A stretch of 39,162 nt of DNA from a virus. Its lineage: Duplodnaviria; Heunggongvirae; Uroviricota; Caudoviricetes. The stretch is from IMG/VR virus record IMGVR_UViG_2529293036_000024; one strand, given 5' to 3'. The position numbers are program-made. Of the stretch, positions 21,001 through 27,000 are shown piece by piece; position 1 is the first letter of the stretch, and each line of letters begins with the position of its first letter.

Positions 21001-24000
21001 AAGTCCAGGTTTTACGCCGCAGTGTCTGATCAACAAAGGCACCATACCGGCGACTGAAAAGTCTTTTTTTAAAACATCAATCCCGTCAGGCAAAAGTTGT
21101 TTTTCTTTATCAGAACAGAGAAGAAGGCCGATGTCATGTACACGCATGAACAGATTGATGGATATCATGCACTAAGGCTTCATGTAATTGTCAGGGGAAC
21201 GAACCCTGGTGTTACGACGGTTTATGCTTTCGCGAATATGGTTACTCCACCTTCTGAGTATGGTATCGCCATGTATAACCCGGACGGTGAGATGATTTAT
21301 CATGGCGAAATGATGCTGCTTGACGCGAAGTTAATACCTGTTGATATCAAATTTGAAAAGGACCTTGGATATCCATGCGCAATCATGCCTGCACTGGTCG
21401 GGTATTATAACTGGAAAAGAACTCCTTATGATCGACCGATTTATACCACATCCACTGGTGCTACAGGAAATAAAATATATTCCTGTGAGCATTATTCCGG
21501 TGGTGCAACATGGGATATTCGAAAGCCGTATATAGATAAGGTCCTGGTTATTAATACATCAGTATATGATTAGTTGAAGCGAGTCTTTAATATTCATTTA
21601 AAATGTCTAAAAAGATGTATTATTAAAAAGTTTAGCGTGTTATCTGAATACAGGATATCTTAAATGAAGAGTATAGCAACACTGGTTGTGTGTGCAATCT
21701 CCGGGATTGCCTGTGTAAATTTATCTGCACATGCAGCAGAAGGAGAGCATACAATTTCTCTGGGGTATGCGCACTTTCAGTTTCCGGGACTGAAGGATTT
21801 TGTAAAGGATGCGACTGCTCATAACAGGGAGACTTTCAGTCATTTCGTCAACAGAAACTACTTTTCTTCATTGGGCGAATATACAGATGGTCGGGTCAGT
21901 GGATATGAAGGCAAGGATAAAAATCCACAGGGCATTAATATCAGGTATCGCTACGAGATAACGGATGATTTTGGCGTTATCACCTCTTTTACATGGACGC
22001 GTTCTCTCACTAACTCACAGACATTTATTGATGTGCAGTCAGCCGATCATACCAGGAAGATTAAGAATCCGGCAGCTTCTGCCAGAACGGATATCAGGGC
22101 GAATTACTGGAGTCTGTTAGCGGGGCCTTCATGGCGGGTTAATCAGTACATGAGTTTATATGCGATGGCAGGGATGGGCGTTGCTAAAGTTAGCGCTGAC
22201 CTGAAAATTAAGGACAATATTAACAGTAGTGGCGGATTTTCTGAAAGCAACAGCACGAAAAAAACCTCCCTTGCGTGGGCTGCAGGTGCACAGTTTAACC
22301 TGAATGAGAGTGTTACACTGGATGTGGCTTACGAAGGTTCCGGCTCTGGCGACTGGCGCACGAGTGGCGTTACTGCTGGCATTGGCCTGAAATTCTGACC
22401 TGTATCCGGTAACCGTTTACTACCCGCTGTGATGGCGGGTTTTTTATTGCCCGTACAGGGCAAAAACCGTAAATTATGCGTGGGTGCCTTTCGGCTGATG
22501 GCTGGAGGGTGAACCTGAAGGCCTGATGTGGAAAGGCCCCGAGTCAACTTAACGTTAACCCGAGGCCCTAACACTTCGTACCTTAAGCAAGTAGAAGGTT
22601 AGCGCCTCTCTGTAAAAGGAGTCAAGCGCTATGTCGCAAAAATCGCTTATCACCGTCACAATTTGCATGACGGTTATCTTCACCATCTGGATGTTGCACG
22701 GTTCACTGTGTGAGTTCCGGCTGAATTTGTGGGGAGCGGAGTTTGCGGCGTTCTTACAGTGTAAGCAGTAGGAAAACCGCGACGGGGACGAGAGTCCCCG
22801 TCAACTGGTTGCTGAGGTTCAGCCGATATGGCACCCGTTTCAGGTGAGAGAATGAACGATAAAATTCTCTGGTATATGCAGCGTGTTGTGAGAAATTCCC
22901 GCAACCCTGAATTTATGAATGAAGTTAAAGACGCCTGCCTTAAAAAGCAGGCGTTTTGTTTTGAGGCACCTGATGGCTTTTTGGTGCTGCGTTCTGTGCT
23001 CAGTGCTGATGGTATCCCTTATGTTCTGGTGTTGCTGGGCGTGTGTACGGGGAGTAACAGCGTTGAGCGTTACCTGCCGGAGGTGAAGACATTAACCCAT
23101 CTGGCTGGCGGACGCTGGGCTGAGTTCCATACGGCAAGGCGGGGATTTATCCGGCTGGGAAAACGACTGGGCTTTGAGCGAATGCCGGATGATGAGGATG
23201 GCTTCATGGTGTTCAGGATAGCGGTCTGACTGCTACAGTTTTCATCATTGTGTTTAAACCAACATTGTAATTCACATTCTGACCCTGCTCCGGCAGGGTT
23301 TTTTGTTATCCAGGGGGCCATTATGGGTGGAAGTAAAGGCGGTGGTGATACCAAAGTAAAACCAACAGCAGCGCAAATAGCACAGGAAGAAGTGGCCTGG
23401 AAAGGGTGGCAGGATTACAAAAATATCCTCCGCCCGGCTGAAGATAACTTCATGGAAAAGGTCGATGACCTGAACAGTGAGCAGCAGTACGACAATATTG
23501 CTGGCACCACAAATCTGGGGTATCAGAAACAGTTTGGCGAAGCACGGAAGGAGCTTGCGGGTAATCTTGCTCAGTCCGGCGTTGACCCATCCAGTGGTCG
23601 TTTTAATGCGGTAATGAATGCGAACCAGAGTGACCAGGTAACCGGGCAGATTGACACAACCACACGGGGGCAGGTATCGCAGGCAGATAAGTATGTTGCC
23701 GGGCTACAGGATGTTGCTGCTCTCGGTTCTGGTCAGAAGGCGGATGCGTTACAGAGTTTTAACTCTCTGGCAGACAGCAGTCTGGCAAAAGCTAAATCGG
23801 ATGCACAGGCGGCGTTTACGAAACAGCAGGGGCGAGCCTCTCTTGTTGGCGCTGGTCTGGGTGCGGCAGGTGCATATGCGATGCATAAGGCTGGCGGTAG
23901 CGGAGGAAGTGGCGGTGCTAAAACACCTGGCACCGGCGCTAATGCCATTCAGCATCAGGCTCAGAACTGGAGACTGTGATTATGGAGTACGGTAAATACG

Positions 24001-27000
24001 AAACACTTGCAAGATACGGTTATACCGGAGCAGCCCGCCCTCAGGGGGACTGGCAGACATCCGCAGCGCTGACACGCCAACAATACGACGACTGGCGAAC
24101 CAGATATTTGCCCCGCGTGGCAAGGCTGGCTGACCTTGGGGAGAACAACAGTCTGATGAATGCACAGCTTGCACGGGTGGGAGGCCTTGCCACTTCCAGT
24201 CTCCGTACAGCGCAGATGGCGCAGGATAACCAGATGGCGAGATACGGGGTAAACCGCCCGGATAATCCCGACAGTAATACGCTGGGGTTACGTAATGCCC
24301 TGGCAATTGCTGGCGCGAAAAATGGTATCCGTGAAGCCGAACAGGATCGCCAGATGAATATTCTGACGGGGGCTTCTGCACCGGCAAGACAGAAACTGAG
24401 TGTTGGCGGCCAACTGGTGGCAGCGTAAGGGGGCAATATGGGATACGGTTTACTGGATATTGCAAATCAGTCGCGGCGTGAGGCATTACAGGGAATAAGT
24501 GACGCAGACAGACGACGTGAAGAAATTGAGGCTGCGAACAAACAGATGGCGGCGCAACAGAAAGCGCAGAACAAGCAGAATATCGGTACGGGCATTGGTA
24601 CGGGGGCGGCTATTGGCGCATCCGTTGGTGGTCCTGTTGGTGCTGTTGCTGGAGCAGTAATTGGCGGCATTGCTGGTTCTTTGTTTTAAGGAGTGGTGAA
24701 TGAGCGGATTTGCACAGGGGTTACTTGCCGGATTCAGCACCGTTGACCAGGCAATGACCCGTCGTAAGGAGCTTGGTCTGCGTGAAGCACAGCTTGCCCG
24801 GCAACAGAAAAATAACGAGCGCGATTTTGAGTTTGCGCAGTCTCAGTTTGAACATAATAAAAACGTTGATCAGCGGAACTTTGATTACAGAGCCAAAGTT
24901 GACGACCGTAATTATGCACTGAAGGAAAGGGAGTTTAACGCTAACCAGAATTACCGGAATGCGTCACTGGGTATGGAGCAGCAGCGACTCCAGTTGCAGA
25001 AATACAACCAGCGACGGCTTGAGTATAACGATATGATTGCCCATAGCCAGCCACTAATGGAAGCGCTTGGAAAAGCAATTGAGGCTGGCGATCAGGAGGC
25101 TGCAACGCGTCTGTTCGGGCAGCTGCCAAAGGGACATCCATTAATTCTTATGTCAAACGAAGGCTATGCAGCGAAAGCGGGTCAGGCCGTGATCAACCTG
25201 CAAAAAATCTTTGGTGATAAGCCGGACATGGCGATCGATTCGCTGAATACCCCGGAAAATCTCGATGTGCTTTCCGGCGTGTTTGCCCCGGAACTACAAC
25301 AGCGTATTGGCATGCCTGATTCAACCGGGGACAAAACGATAAAAGAGGCCAGGATTGGCAGTATCGTACCAGCGCAGCAGGAAGGGTACGTACTTATTGG
25401 CCTTGATCTCACATACAGCGATGGCTCCACCGCGCATAAACCTGTAACAGAATACGGCAGTGCGCACCCTGATGATCAAACCGTGCTGGCGATACCCGTT
25501 GATAAGGCTATCGCTCAGGTCAGGGATCGCAGCAAATTTGCAGAGATATCGAAAAATTATGGTTATTTTATGCCGAAGCAGCAGGGACTTTCTCTGAAAG
25601 AGCTTCAGAAGGGGGCCAGCAACGTAGCGGCGGACGCGATCAAGAATGGCGGTAATGCTCAGGCTGCGGTGGATGAATATTATGCTGCGACTGGTTCACA
25701 ACCGCATCAACAGAAAATTCAGCAACAAAAACTTCAGCAACAGGTTATCAACTGGGCGGGAGATGATCCTGATAAGCTGTCATTTGCCAGAAATGTAGCG
25801 GCCCGTCAGCCTGAAATGCTGGAACCTCAGAATCAGAAATTGCTGGAGAACGGGTATGCGAATTTTCTCCGTATTCAAAAGGCCAGGGGGGAACAGGCCA
25901 GAGATGAAAGTGCTTCATCTGCATCTCAGTTTATCCGTGGACTGAAACAGAATTACGCCCAGTAATTCACGATATTCCATTAATACCATTTCCTGATGCC
26001 CGGCCATTGTGCCGGGTTTTTTTATGGAGTCTGTATGGCCTATTCAGAGGAACAGCGTCCTGAGGCGCAACTCGGTAACCAGAATCGTAACAGCCTGAAC
26101 ATTCAGCAACCCGGCGAAACTGACAGCTATGAAGCATTTTTCTCTGATCCGAATCGCTGGAAGGATAACAGTACGTCGTTCAGCCTGGGCGATGTATTGC
26201 CAACAATGGGTAAAGGTTTCGCCCAGTCCGTCCGGGGAACAGGGGAAATGGCCCGTGGACTCGGTGATGCGATGATTCAGAGCCCGGTAAAAACAGGGGC
26301 GCGTATTTTAAATGAGTTCAGCCGTATGGGGCTGCCGGGTGTCGCAACTGTGCAGGATATTTTTGCCGGTGGCAGCAGGGGGGCTGATGAGGTCATCGAT
26401 ACCCTGCCTGATGGCAAAAACGCGGTTACTGATACTGTCGGTAAAGGTCTGAAGGCAACCGGTAAGGCTGTCAGTGATGGTGCCAAAGCCACTGATGAAT
26501 GGCTGACCGGTAAGATGTCGCCGGGTGCAGTTCGTGCGCTGAATACGCCGATGACCGAAGGCTATAATGATTCTGCGGTCTGGGTGGCGAAGGGTGTAAA
26601 CCTGATTGGTGCGCTTGTACCTGATATGGTTGCTGGCGGTGTGGCTAGAAAGGTGGGTGATGTCACACTGCGAAAAATGCTGACCGCCGGGCTGGAGAAA
26701 AAATACATCGCGGCAGGGATGCAGCCGGAAAGAGCCACGGCACTGGCAGCAGAAGCTGTCGATAAAAAAATGCCGGATTTATTCCAGGCGGGCCTGATCA
26801 CCCATTCCACTGTAAGTGCACAGGGGCAGAGTGCAATGGCGGCAGCAGATGCTGTTCTTAATGCTGATTACTCTGAGCTGGCGCAGTCACCGAAATTTCA
26901 GCAGACGTTTTTGTCCATTGACGCCGACCCGCAGCACGCACAGCTTACTGATCGCCAGAAAATGGATCTGGCAAAAGAGCGTGTTGCCGATGAGGTGCGC

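What the first reader, a model, noticed from the sequence alone, without database searches (positions are those of the whole stretch)
23283..25965. Terminator-bracketed four-gene block upstream of the giant ORF resembles an ejection/internal-protein module
Four tightly packed ORFs (23323, 23982, 24438, 24700) sit between two strong intrinsic terminators (23283-23306 and 25999-26023). They include a glycine-zipper membrane-active small protein and Gln/Asn-rich coiled proteins. This is the kind of gene set podoviruses use for internal or ejection proteins, but none has a confidently recognisable domain.
Basis: inference. Interest (0 to 1): 0.5.

Follow-up and report, generated by a model that had tools for sequence, protein, structure and literature searches.

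The report
Stx phage internal/ejection protein genes
These four small genes of a Shiga-toxin phage encode proteins that travel inside the virus particle next to a giant 2,793-residue protein and most likely help build the channel that delivers the phage DNA into E. coli, an expected kind of module that had not been assigned in this medically important phage group.

Summary
Four translationally packed ORFs (23323-23979, 23982-24428, 24438-24689, 24700-25965) lie between two strong terminator-like hairpins (23281-23306, 25998-26024). The window is a short-tailed Stx-converting phage (Sepvirinae). The genes are Sp5 ORF76-79, equal to 933W L0130-L0133 and phi24B gp51/gp50/gp49/gp48.

- gp51, gp50 and gp48 occur in purified phi24B virions at about 25-45 copies.
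- None was located in a cryo-EM map that accounts for the whole tail.
- Deleting ORF79 kills infectivity after DNA packaging, and deleting ORF76 cripples it.

My own analyses add three points:
- The gene order g0-g1-g2-g3-g4-giant is conserved in 36 diverged prophages and in Aeromonas and Vibrio phages. Ralstonia phage GP4 keeps part of it.
- The four proteins plus the giant contain no cysteine in 3,663 residues. The proven ejection proteins of N4 and P22 share this; flanking genes do not.
- No sequence or fold homology to T7, P22 or N4 ejection proteins was detected.

The terminators are lineage-specific moron insulators and do not bound the module. The functional unit includes the giant ORF. 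Ejection itself is still inferred. This is a new member of a known kind, of moderate interest.

The parts
22828..23229 (+). g0 (133 aa; VT2-Sakai H0145, 933W L0129, Sp5 ORF75). A conserved upstream neighbour of the module, probably not a virion protein.
   Evidence: An orthologue is present immediately upstream of g1 in all 36 diverged loci, abutting it (7-8 nt) in about half of them, and also in Aeromonas phiARM81mr and Vibrio D80. It contains cysteine (3 in the window protein, 1.67% in the family), unlike g1-g4. It is not listed in the held part of the phi24B virion proteome file. It is not among the essential genes in Sp5. It belongs to PHROG 610, function unknown.
23281..23306 (+). Intrinsic-terminator-like hairpin plus T-run between g0 and g1.
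   Evidence: 8-pair stem, -16.5 kcal/mol, z = -3.5. The same hairpin occurs in the closest diverged relatives L052-L054. It is absent where g0 abuts g1.
23323..23979 (+). g1 (218 aa; Sp5 ORF76/ECs1238, phi24B gp51). An all-alpha virion protein with a C-terminal Gly/Ala-rich segment (residues about 172-200).
   Evidence: 99% identical to the phi24B protein. 82 PSM in the batch digest, about 27 copies per virion, with structure-based abundance 'ND'. Deleting ORF76 markedly reduces infection and lysogenisation. Homologous to GP4 virion-associated protein AXG67766 (phrog_8003). The AF2 model has low confidence and consists of extended helices. No cysteine.
23982..24428 (+). g2 (148 aa; Sp5 ORF77, phi24B gp50). 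A small virion protein.
   Evidence: 100% identical to the phi24B protein. 83 PSM in the batch digest, about 44-48 copies per virion, not located in the map. Conserved in all relatives but one. No cysteine in 27 family members. Dispensable in Sp5 when deleted alone.
24438..24689 (+). g3 (83 aa; Sp5 ORF78, phi24B gp49, often annotated 'bacteriocin'). It has an N-terminal polar helix and a C-terminal glycine-zipper hydrophobic segment (residues about 48-83).
   Evidence: 100% identical to the phi24B protein. Nine zipper motifs, KD19 peak 1.69. G56, G68, G72 and G76 are invariant in orthologues. It gave 6 PSM in virions and was set aside by the authors as contamination on the strength of its annotation alone. 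Normalised for length, this is about 6 copies, more than a genuine 12-copy adaptor scores. Pfam Gly-zipper and bacteriocin hits are below their cut-offs.
24700..25965 (+). g4 (421 aa; Sp5 ORF79/ECs1241, phi24B gp48). An essential virion protein with an N-terminal GxxxGxxxG motif, a roughly 125-residue heptad helix, a helical plus small beta domain, and C-terminal helices.
   Evidence: 100% identical to the phi24B protein. 179 PSM in the batch digest, about 37 copies per virion, not located in the map. Deleting ORF79 leaves DNA packaging intact but gives no plaques or lysogens, and the defect is complemented in trans. AF2 gives pLDDT 84 and a helix over residues 4-128. Hydrophobic periodicity at 3.5 residues is strong. 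No PDB fold match. The family has 66 clusters at 50% identity. No cysteine.
25998..26024 (+). Intrinsic-terminator-like hairpin plus T-run in the 69-nt gap between g4 and the giant ORF.
   Evidence: 7 pairs (6 GC), -17.2 kcal/mol, z = -3.0. Relatives carry a hairpin of different sequence at this position (L052) or hold 0.1-3 kb of cargo genes at the junction.
26035..34416 (+). Giant polyvalent protein (2793 aa; Sp5 ORF80/ECs1242, phi24B gp47). The fifth and largest member of the module.
   Evidence: Pfam domains LPD5, LPD1, MuF_C and LPD38. It is the second most abundant protein by PSM in phi24B virions (about 23 copies), is invisible in the map, and the authors propose it as an ejection protein. 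Essential after DNA packaging in Sp5. No cysteine in 2793 residues. Always downstream of g4 in relatives.

Best explanation
g1-g4, together with the giant ORF that follows them, form the internal-virion (pilot or ejection) protein cassette of the short-tailed Stx phages.

Proposed sequence of events:
1. The genes are transcribed late as part of the Q-antiterminated transcript and translated in a coupled way.
2. The products are packed into the capsid or tail lumen at tens of copies each.
3. After the central needle is released, they leave through the tail channel in an extended, largely alpha-helical, cysteine-free state.
4. In the cell envelope, the small glycine-zipper and helical proteins (g1, g3, perhaps g2) insert into membranes.
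5. The roughly 19-nm coiled-coil protein g4 oligomerises into, or braces, a periplasm-spanning conduit.
6. The giant polyvalent protein crosses or anchors at the inner membrane and delivers its enzymatic domains ahead of, or together with, the DNA.

What is shown:
- The genes are real, tightly packed and syntenic across distant phages.
- The proteins are in virions and are not part of the resolved shell or tail.
- g4 is needed after DNA packaging, and loss of g1 strongly reduces infectivity.

What is inferred:
- Release of the proteins on ejection.
- Membrane insertion.
- The assignment of each protein to a particular envelope layer.

The two flanking hairpins are not part of the mechanism. 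They most likely insulate the late genes from transcription of neighbouring morons (lom, a hok-like locus, g0) in the lysogen, and the antiterminated late polymerase reads through them.
For: Identity. The region is 99.4-99.8% identical in DNA to VT2-Sakai/Sp5 and other Stx phages. The proteins are 99-100% identical to phi24B vb_24B_44-47.

Virion presence. In the phi24B proteome tables, batch-digest PSM counts are gp48 179, gp51 82, gp50 83, gp49 6 and gp47 746. With portal = 12, estimated copies are about 37, 27, 44-48 and 23 for gp48, gp51, gp50 and gp47. 'Structure-based abundance' is ND for all of them.

Not tail or shell. The phi24B tail is fully modelled from gp72, gp64, gp62, gp57, gp61 and gp56. 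A diffuse, unassigned density in the adaptor lumen disappears in ejected particles.

Genetics. Sp5 lacking ORF79 or ORF80 packages DNA but is non-infectious, and the defects are complemented. Sp5 lacking ORF76 is strongly impaired.

Synteny.
- The order g0-g1-g2-g3-g4-(variable cargo)-giant holds in 36 of 36 diverged IMG/VR loci wherever the locus reaches far enough; one of them lacks g2 and g3.
- The same order holds in Aeromonas phiARM81mr p64-p69 and Vibrio D80 0015-0021.
- The GP4 homologue of g1 is annotated as virion-associated.

Cysteine-free signature.
- There is no Cys in the 3,663 residues of g1-g4 plus the giant. The other ORFs of the window average 1.18%, so about 43 would be expected (P about 1e-19).
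- Orthologue families of g1-g4 hold 6 Cys in 28,653 residues.
- The giants of Aeromonas, Vibrio and GP4 have 0 Cys.
- N4 gp50/51/52 have 0, P22 gp7/20/16 have 0, and T7 gp15/16 have 0.
- Interleaved or flanking non-ejected genes do contain Cys: g0, GP4 PAPS reductase, P22 gp14, T7 gp13 and N4 gp53/54.

Physical features.
- g4 has a confident 125-residue helix (pLDDT 84) with 3.5-residue periodicity.
- g1 has no stable monomer fold.
- Glycine-zipper segments occur in g1, g3, the N-terminus of g4 and the giant near residues 405-425.
- The g3 zipper resembles segments of tape-measure and internal-virion proteins.

Gene order. The order needle, then small, medium and giant genes parallels N4 gp53-gp52-gp51-gp50 and P22 gp26-gp14-gp7-gp20-gp16.
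Against: - No experiment shows that these proteins leave the particle. The proteome came from a mixture of about 59% intact and 41% ejected particles.
- Mondal et al. read the ORF79 and ORF80 deletion phenotype as a tail-formation defect, because anti-fibre antibody did not label the particles. P22 particles lacking their ejection proteins keep normal tails (my recollection).
- g2 and g3 are individually dispensable in Sp5.
- g3 gave only 6 PSM, the same level as the membrane contaminants Lom and Bor.
- There is no sequence, profile or fold similarity to any solved ejection protein.
- Absence of cysteine also marks exposed virion proteins such as the fibre and the needle, so it is not specific to ejection.
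Confidence: 0.7

Rival explanations
1. g4, and possibly g1-g3, are tail-assembly or head-completion factors, or minor tail components. They would be needed to build or stabilise the tail on the filled head and would not be ejected.
For: Sp5 particles lacking ORF79 or ORF80 contain DNA but were not labelled by antibody to the tail fibre. The authors therefore classed both genes as 'required for tail formation'. The genes lie downstream of the nozzle and needle genes.
Against: The phi24B map accounts for the whole tail with six other proteins, and gp48, gp50 and gp51 have no place in it. About 25-45 copies per virion is far more than an assembly chaperone would leave behind. The immuno-EM result was negative and 'data not shown', and tails of wild-type Sp5 were themselves seen only occasionally. 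Loss of an internal core that plugs or braces the portal channel could destabilise the tail secondarily.
Confidence: 0.15
2. The proteins are internal capsid proteins that stay behind. They might be a scaffold remnant, a DNA-organising core, or a chaperone cage that keeps some 20 copies of the giant polyvalent protein unfolded and ordered. In this reading only the giant protein is ejected.
For: They are present in virions but unresolved. Their copy numbers are similar to that of the giant protein. The order g4 then giant is invariant. A residual layer of density remains in ejected capsids.
Against: The cysteine-free, glycine-zipper and coiled-coil features match proteins that cross the periplasm or enter membranes. 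The lumen density that vanishes on ejection suggests that protein leaves along with the DNA. The ORF76 deletion impairs infection rather than particle yield.
Confidence: 0.1
3. The block is a moron or lysogenic-conversion cassette, such as a bacteriocin or membrane toxin with accessory proteins, delimited by its own terminators.
For: It is flanked by terminator-like hairpins. g3 is annotated 'bacteriocin' in several records and gives weak Pfam hits to Bacteriocin_IIc and MccV. Real morons (lom and a hok-like gene) lie just upstream.
Against: - There is no promoter-like site within or just upstream of the block on the + strand.
- The bacteriocin hits are below their cut-offs and are confined to the Gly-rich tail.
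- No double-glycine leader, immunity gene or export gene is present (sequence).
- Synteny with structural genes holds across Enterobacterales, Aeromonas and Vibrio.
- The products are abundant in virions.
- One of the genes is essential for infectivity.
- The terminators are missing in most relatives.
Confidence: 0.03

Closest known systems
Schitoviridae ejection cassette: N4 gp52 (150 aa) - gp51 (644 aa) - gp50 vRNAP (3500 aa), and DEV gp73 - gp72 - gp71
   Same: - The cassette sits after the tail-plug or needle gene and runs small, then medium, then giant.
- All members are virion proteins that are largely invisible in maps.
- The proteins are alpha-helical without a stable monomer core.
- The giant cargo exceeds 2,700 residues.
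- All members lack cysteine.
- The capsid lineage is related: T=9, and the Sp5 coat protein carries an N4-type capsid domain.
   Different: - No sequence or profile similarity was found.
- The g4 model does not match the T7 gp15-like 'leg' fold reported for N4 gp51.
- There are four small or medium proteins here instead of two.
- The giant protein is a polyvalent LPD/MuF protein, not an RNA polymerase.
P22 gp14 - gp7 (229 aa) - gp20 (471 aa) - gp16 (609 aa), following needle gp26
   Same: - The gene order and sizes run in parallel: a Cys-containing gene of about 140 aa whose product I recall is not a virion component (gp14; g0 here), then about 220 aa, then about 420-470 aa, then the largest.
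- The ejection proteins lack cysteine while the upstream gene contains it.
- Copy numbers are in the tens. quotes about 12, 12 and 30 for P22.
   Different: - No detectable homology.
- Two extra small genes (g2, g3) are present.
- The last gene is 4.6 times larger.
- g0 is dispensable in Sp5.
- P22 mutants lacking ejection proteins keep normal tails (my recollection, not tested here).
T7 gp13 - gp14 (196 aa) - gp15 (747 aa) - gp16 (1318 aa) internal core / DNA ejectosome
   Same: It is an operon of internal proteins that form an outer-membrane pore, a periplasmic tunnel and an inner-membrane/cytoplasmic hub. g1 falls in the size range of gp14-like proteins (181-240 aa), and g4 is close to the lower end of gp15-like proteins (431 aa). 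gp15 and gp16 lack cysteine.
   Different: - There is no homology to the PDB chains of gp14/15/16 by profile or by fold.
- g1 lacks the four or five predicted TM helices of gp14-like proteins.
- No lytic transglycosylase domain is found; the giant protein carries a MuF_C domain instead.
- No ordered core stack was reported in phi24B.
Ralstonia phage GP4 virion-associated proteins AXG67766 (277 aa) and AXG67764 (509 aa), upstream of the 3224-aa 'DarB-like' giant AXG67763
   Same: - GP4 is the closest structural relative of the phi24B virion.
- AXG67766 is a true homologue of g1: profile E = 1e-10, with reciprocal PHROG hits 611/8003.
- The layout is the same, with a medium protein directly upstream of a cysteine-free giant.
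   Different: No counterparts of g2 or g3 are recognisable. The 509-aa protein is not detectably related to g4. A PAPS-reductase-like cargo gene interrupts the cassette.
Glycine-zipper membrane segments (Pfam Gly-zipper_YMGG/Omp families; tape-measure and internal-virion protein segments)
   Same: g3 residues 48-83 form a run of GxxxG repeats of transmembrane length. The weak best matches are to Gly-zipper families, to a tape-measure protein chain (9ki1_g) and to PHROGs for tape-measure and internal-virion proteins.
   Different: All of these scores are below the curated cut-offs. The similarity is one of composition and motif, not of demonstrated common ancestry.

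Membership tests
Podovirus internal-virion / ejection proteins (functional class: T7 gp14-16, P22 gp7/20/16, N4 gp50-52) | Present in purified virions | tested here: met
   The window proteins are 99-100% identical to phi24B proteins. The published phi24B proteome gives 179, 82 and 83 PSM for g4, g1 and g2, and 6 for g3. For g3 alone the result is marginal.
Podovirus internal-virion / ejection proteins | Not part of the ordered shell or tail; located inside the capsid or tail lumen | tested here: inconclusive
   The proteins are absent from the complete tail and shell model and are marked 'ND' for structural copy number. An unassigned lumen density is lost on ejection. 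None of the four proteins has been positively localised.
Podovirus internal-virion / ejection proteins | Leave the particle with the DNA and enter the host envelope | not testable with these tools
   This needs proteomics of separated intact and ejected particles, or fractionation of infected cells.
Podovirus internal-virion / ejection proteins | Dispensable for capsid assembly and DNA packaging but required for infectivity | tested here: inconclusive
   From the literature: g4 meets the criterion, since the ORF79 deletion packages DNA, gives no plaques or lysogens, and is complemented. g1 meets it partly (strongly reduced infectivity). g2 and g3 are individually dispensable.
Podovirus internal-virion / ejection proteins | Encoded as a small-to-large cassette next to the tail genes | tested here: met
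   Gene order in the window is conserved in 36 loci and in distant phages. It parallels N4, P22 and T7.
T7 gp14/gp15/gp16, P22 gp7/gp20/gp16 and N4 gp52/gp51 protein families (common ancestry) | Detectable sequence or profile similarity | tested here: not met
   Profile searches of the g1-g4 families against all PDB chain sequences gave no relevant hit at E <= 10. hhalign against N4 gp51 and gp52 gave probabilities below 1%. hmmsearch against the T7, P22 and N4 proteins gave E > 0.02 in a set of 17 sequences.
T7 gp15-like 'leg fold' periplasmic tunnel proteins (T7 gp15, DEV gp72, N4 gp51) | Structural similarity of the protomer | tested here: not met
Pfam glycine-zipper families (PF13441 Gly-zipper_YMGG and relatives), for g3 | Score above the Pfam gathering threshold | tested here: not met
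   25.7 bits against a cut-off of 28.9. The motif itself is present and conserved.
Class II bacteriocins / microcin V (the database annotation of g3) | Family score above threshold; double-glycine leader; linked immunity and export genes | tested here: not met
   Bacteriocin_IIc scores 19.7 against a cut-off of 27.1, and MccV 11.6 against 27. There is no leader and no immunity or export genes. The gene is embedded in a conserved structural cassette.
Rho-independent terminators | GC-rich hairpin followed by a U-run | tested here: met
   Searches show both features. Whether the hairpins terminate in vivo, and whether Q-modified polymerase reads through them, cannot be tested here.

The most novel reading that the evidence does not exclude
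The Stx-phage/GP4-type podoviruses would use a distinct, five-component ejectosome. Its channel-forming parts would be three small glycine-zipper or helical proteins plus a coiled-coil protein whose fold has no solved relative. These would evolve independently of the T7, P22 and N4 families and be specialised to thread some 20 copies of a polyvalent effector protein of about 2,800 residues into the cell.

A corollary is that complete absence of cysteine would be a general, sequence-only marker that separates ejected proteins from interleaved non-ejected genes in podovirus genomes.
Probability: 0.3. Interest if true: 0.6.

Novelty: new member of a known kind. Interest (0 to 1): 0.42.

Why it matters
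Short-tailed Stx phages spread Shiga-toxin genes among E. coli, yet how they get DNA across the envelope after binding BamA is unknown.

Assigning ORF76-79 together with the giant ORF80 as the ejection cassette has several uses:
- It gives concrete targets for blocking lysogenic conversion.
- It explains two published but uninterpreted data sets: the post-packaging lethal phenotypes in Sp5, and the 'ND' virion proteins in phi24B.
- It suggests that gp49, dismissed as a bacteriocin contaminant, deserves a second look.
- It extends the parallel with N4-like phages, in which giant proteins are threaded through a channel of about 35 Angstrom.

The cysteine-free signature is a cheap annotation aid for the many podovirus genomes whose ejection proteins cannot be recognised by homology.

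Tried and rejected
- **Family scans.** Pfam and PHROG scans of the four proteins returned only families of unknown function, apart from a weak 'virion structural protein' hit for g1 (phrog_8003), and sub-threshold glycine-zipper or bacteriocin hits.
- **PDB sequence and profile searches.** Nothing relevant. The one borderline hit of the g4 profile was the poly-Q tract of human TBP. It probably explains the old GenBank note 'similar to transcription initiation factor' and the preprint's label 'Transcription factor?'. I take it as a compositional artefact.
- **AF2 of g1.** Mean pLDDT was 48.6, too poor to search with.
- **The search for related loci with the g4 alignment.** It failed because no conserved stretch was available. 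The g1 alignment was used instead.
- **g0 as a GNAT or HlyC-like acyltransferase that modifies the ejection proteins.** The idea came from a GP4 neighbour annotated as an acyltransferase. It found no support: g0 has no Pfam hit, the GP4 protein's GNAT hit is sub-threshold (E = 0.006), and the two are not related.
- **g0 as a homologue of P22 gp14 or T7 gp13.** Only position, size and cysteine content run in parallel. No sequence signal was found.
- **First word-indexed homologue search for g4.** It returned only E. coli near-identical proteins. The exhaustive search was needed to reach distant relatives.
- **Rfam scan of 22000-26300.** Nothing within the block.
- **Riley 2012 lysogen-expression paper.** It does not mention these genes.

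Full report
**Observation.** ORF listing and direct reading of the sequence confirm four + strand ORFs: g1 at 23323-23979 (218 aa), g2 at 23982-24428 (148 aa), g3 at 24438-24689 (83 aa) and g4 at 24700-25965 (421 aa). The gaps between them are 2, 9 and 10 nt, and each start is preceded by a purine-rich ribosome-binding stretch. The consensus scan and RNA folding confirm two hairpin-plus-T-run elements. One is at 23281-23306 (-16.5 kcal/mol, z = -3.5) and the other at 25998-26024 (-17.2 kcal/mol, z = -3.0). g3 has a dense C-terminal glycine zipper, and g1-g4 are enriched in Gln and Asn at 13-17%. No Pfam domain passes its threshold. The giant ORF is best started at 26035 (GGAG upstream, 2793 aa), which leaves the second hairpin in a 69-nt intergenic gap.

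**What the window is.** The region is 99.4-99.8% identical to many short-tailed Stx-converting phages: VT2-Sakai/Sp5, 933W-type phages and phi24B, all Sepvirinae, genus Traversvirus. The four genes are VT2-Sakai H0146-H0149, which correspond to 933W L0130-L0133, Sp5 ORF76-79 (ECs1238-1241) and phi24B vb_24B_44-47. Their products are 99%, 100%, 100% and 100% identical to the phi24B proteins. Experimental results on Sp5 and phi24B therefore apply directly.

**Published genetics (Mondal et al. 2016, PMC5155283).**
- In-frame deletion of ORF79 (g4) or ORF80 (the giant) abolishes plaque formation and lysogenisation. The amount of packaged, DNase-resistant DNA stays at wild-type level.
- Both defects are complemented in trans.
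- Deletion of ORF76 (g1) leaves the phage viable but markedly reduces infection and lysogenisation.
- ORF75 (g0), ORF77 (g2) and ORF78 (g3) are not among the essential genes.

**Published proteomics and cryo-EM (Bubenchikov et al. 2026, bioRxiv 10.64898/2026.04.10.717836).**
- Purified phi24B virions contain 15 candidate structural proteins. In the supplementary tables, batch-digest PSM counts are gp48 (g4) 179, gp51 (g1) 82, gp50 (g2) 83 and the giant gp47 746.
- With portal = 12, estimated copies per virion are about 37, 27, 44-48 and 23 respectively. The column 'structure-based abundance' reads ND for all of them.
- gp48, gp50 and gp51 are never mentioned in the main text.
- The 83-aa gp49 (g3) gave 6 PSM. 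It was listed with Lom and Bor as 'most probably contamination', explicitly on the basis of its 'bacteriocin' annotation.
- Normalised for length, those 6 PSM correspond to about 6 copies. The adaptor gp62, which is present at 12 copies by structure, scores only about 2.7 on the same scale. g3 could still be a membrane contaminant like Lom or Bor, so its status is open.
- The map accounts for the entire tail with portal gp72, adaptors gp64 and gp62, nozzle gp57, fibres gp61 and needle gp56. A diffuse unassigned density in the adaptor lumen disappears in ejected particles.
- The authors propose only gp47 as an ejection protein.

**Conservation.**
- An exhaustive search finds a small g4 family of 66 clusters at 50% identity.
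- g1 homologues occur in prophages of Salmonella, Citrobacter, Serratia, Yersinia, Pectobacterium, Dickeya and Aeromonas.
- In 36 diverged IMG/VR loci (mostly 46-57% g1 identity), the order g0-g1-g2-g3-g4-giant is kept wherever the contig reaches far enough. One locus lacks g2 and g3.
- The same order holds in Aeromonas phage phiARM81mr (p64-p69, several annotated 'virion structural protein') and in Vibrio phage D80 (0015-0021, with an HNH endonuclease inserted before g4).
- In Ralstonia phage GP4, the closest structural relative of the phi24B virion, the 277-aa virion-associated protein AXG67766 is a homologue of g1. A cysteine-free 509-aa virion-associated protein directly precedes its 3224-aa giant.

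**Protein features.**
- AlphaFold2 with a 40-sequence alignment gives a confident g4 model (pLDDT 84). It has a single helix over residues 4-128, a helical region, a small beta domain (213-266) and C-terminal helices.
- The long helix shows strong 3.5-residue hydrophobic periodicity, so it is a coiled-coil former. At 1.5 Angstrom per residue it is about 19 nm long (the length is my arithmetic).
- The N-terminus of g4 carries a conserved GxxxGxxxG motif.
- g1 folds poorly as a monomer (pLDDT 49, four extended helices).
- Glycine-zipper segments occur in the C-terminus of g1, in g3, and in the giant near residues 405-425.

**A cysteine-free signature.**
- g1-g4 plus the giant contain no cysteine in 3,663 residues. 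The other ORFs of the window average 1.18%, so about 43 would be expected (P about 1e-19).
- The orthologue families behave the same way, with 6 Cys in 28,653 residues. So do the giants of the Aeromonas, Vibrio and GP4 phages.
- The experimentally established ejection proteins share the property: N4 gp50/51/52, P22 gp7/20/16 and T7 gp15/16 all have 0 Cys, and T7 gp14 has 1.
- Neighbouring genes that are not ejection proteins contain cysteine: g0 (1.67% in the family), GP4 PAPS reductase, P22 gp14, T7 gp13 and N4 gp53/54.
- The signature draws the module boundary between g0 and g1. It fits proteins that must pass, unfolded, through a narrow channel into the oxidising periplasm.
- It is not fully specific, because the fibre, the needle and a decoration protein also lack cysteine.
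- A 2022 review of ejection proteins does not mention cysteine.

**Comparison with known systems.** The layout parallels three model cassettes:
- N4: plug gp53, then gp52 (150 aa), gp51 (644 aa) and gp50 (3500 aa).
- P22: needle gp26, then gp14, gp7 (229 aa), gp20 (471 aa) and gp16.
- T7: gp13, gp14, gp15 and gp16.

**The terminators.**
- The g0-g1 hairpin is shared only with the nearest diverged relatives (L052-L054). In about half of the loci g0 abuts g1 with a 7-8 nt gap.
- The g4-giant junction holds a different hairpin in L052. In most relatives it holds 0.1-3 kb of sequence, which is cargo genes where I inspected it (L055: a PemK/MazF-like toxin pair and a lipoprotein).
- No promoter-like site lies in or before the block.
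- Late transcription in lambdoid phages is Q-antiterminated, which is established knowledge. The hairpins are therefore best read as insulators at moron boundaries. Upstream of the block lie lom, a hok-like gene and g0.

**Verdict.** The best explanation (confidence about 0.7) is that g1-g4 are internal virion proteins forming one cassette with the giant polyvalent protein, and that they act in genome and protein delivery. The layer-by-layer assignment is inference: g1, g3 and perhaps g2 in membranes, g4 as the periplasmic coiled-coil tunnel or brace, and the giant at the inner membrane.

The main rival is a role in tail assembly (about 0.15). It rests on a negative immuno-EM result, and it is hard to reconcile with a tail model that needs none of these proteins and with 25-45 copies per virion.

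The finding is a new member of a known kind and of moderate interest. It is unsurprising in principle, but it had not been assigned in an important phage group, and published data that support it had been left uninterpreted.

Noticed in passing
window 22482-22771 (+), and 22538-22557 (-): An unannotated 46-aa ORF at 22631-22771 is a Hok/Gef-family toxin: Pfam HOK_GEF scores 33.2 bits against a cut-off of 22. The region just upstream (22482-22644) gives a full-length but sub-threshold Rfam 'sok' match (35.6 bits against a gathering score of 59, E = 1.6e-5). The published 20-nt 'microRNA-size' RNA 24B_1 of phi24B maps to 22538-22557 on the opposite strand, 74-93 nt upstream of this ORF, which is where Sok-type antisense RNAs lie. 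24B_1 may therefore be a fragment of the antitoxin RNA of a second hok/sok-like locus, in addition to hokW/sokW downstream of the giant ORF.
   Followed up: partly
window 23323-34416; L087/L088 (N4), L089 (T7), L090 (P22), L003-L006: Ejected and internal proteins of unrelated podoviruses (N4 gp50-52, P22 gp7/20/16, T7 gp15/16, and the Stx-phage and GP4-type cassettes) are completely free of cysteine, while adjacent non-ejected genes are not. This could serve as a sequence-only marker. It is not mentioned in the 2022 ejection-protein review.
   Followed up: partly
window 22828-23229 (+): g0 (133 aa, PHROG 610, function unknown) is the conserved upstream neighbour of g1 in every relative examined. 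It contains cysteine and is not listed in the phi24B virion proteome. Its position, size and cysteine content mirror P22 gp14 (151 aa) and T7 gp13 (138 aa), which precede those phages' ejection genes, but no sequence similarity was found.
   Followed up: partly
window 25966-26034; L055 12673-14567; L004 10539-11330; L006 2485-3210: The junctions inside the cassette are cargo-insertion hot spots in relatives. L055 carries a PemK/MazF-like toxin-antitoxin pair plus a lipoprotein between g4 and the giant. Vibrio phage D80 has an HNH endonuclease before g4. GP4 has a PAPS-reductase-like gene. In the window only a terminator hairpin sits at the g4-giant junction.
   Followed up: partly
window 25996-26035: Some database records start the giant ORF at the ATG at 25996 (2806 aa), which would place the terminator hairpin inside the coding region. 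The ATG at 26035 has a GGAG 5 nt upstream and gives the 2793 aa used for Sp5 ORF80.
   Followed up: yes
window 10444-11451 (+): This 335-aa ORF corresponds to Sp5 ORF61 and phi24B gp70. It also lacks cysteine, is detected in virions at about 9 copies with its structural position 'ND', and is essential for head formation. It is another unlocated internal component, possibly a scaffold or core protein.
   Followed up: no
window 24438-24689 and 24700-25965: Two misleading database labels were traced to composition. 'Bacteriocin' for g3 comes from its Gly-rich tail. 'Transcription initiation factor' for g4 probably comes from its Gln-rich helix, which matches the poly-Q tract of TBP. The first label led the phi24B authors to discard gp49 as a contaminant.
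   Followed up: yes
window 23980-24486 (-) and 24041-24436 (-): Long antisense ORFs (168 and 131 aa) lie inside g2. The only support is a single stray PSM for the corresponding phi24B frame. They are probably by-products of the GC-rich codon pattern of g2.
   Followed up: no
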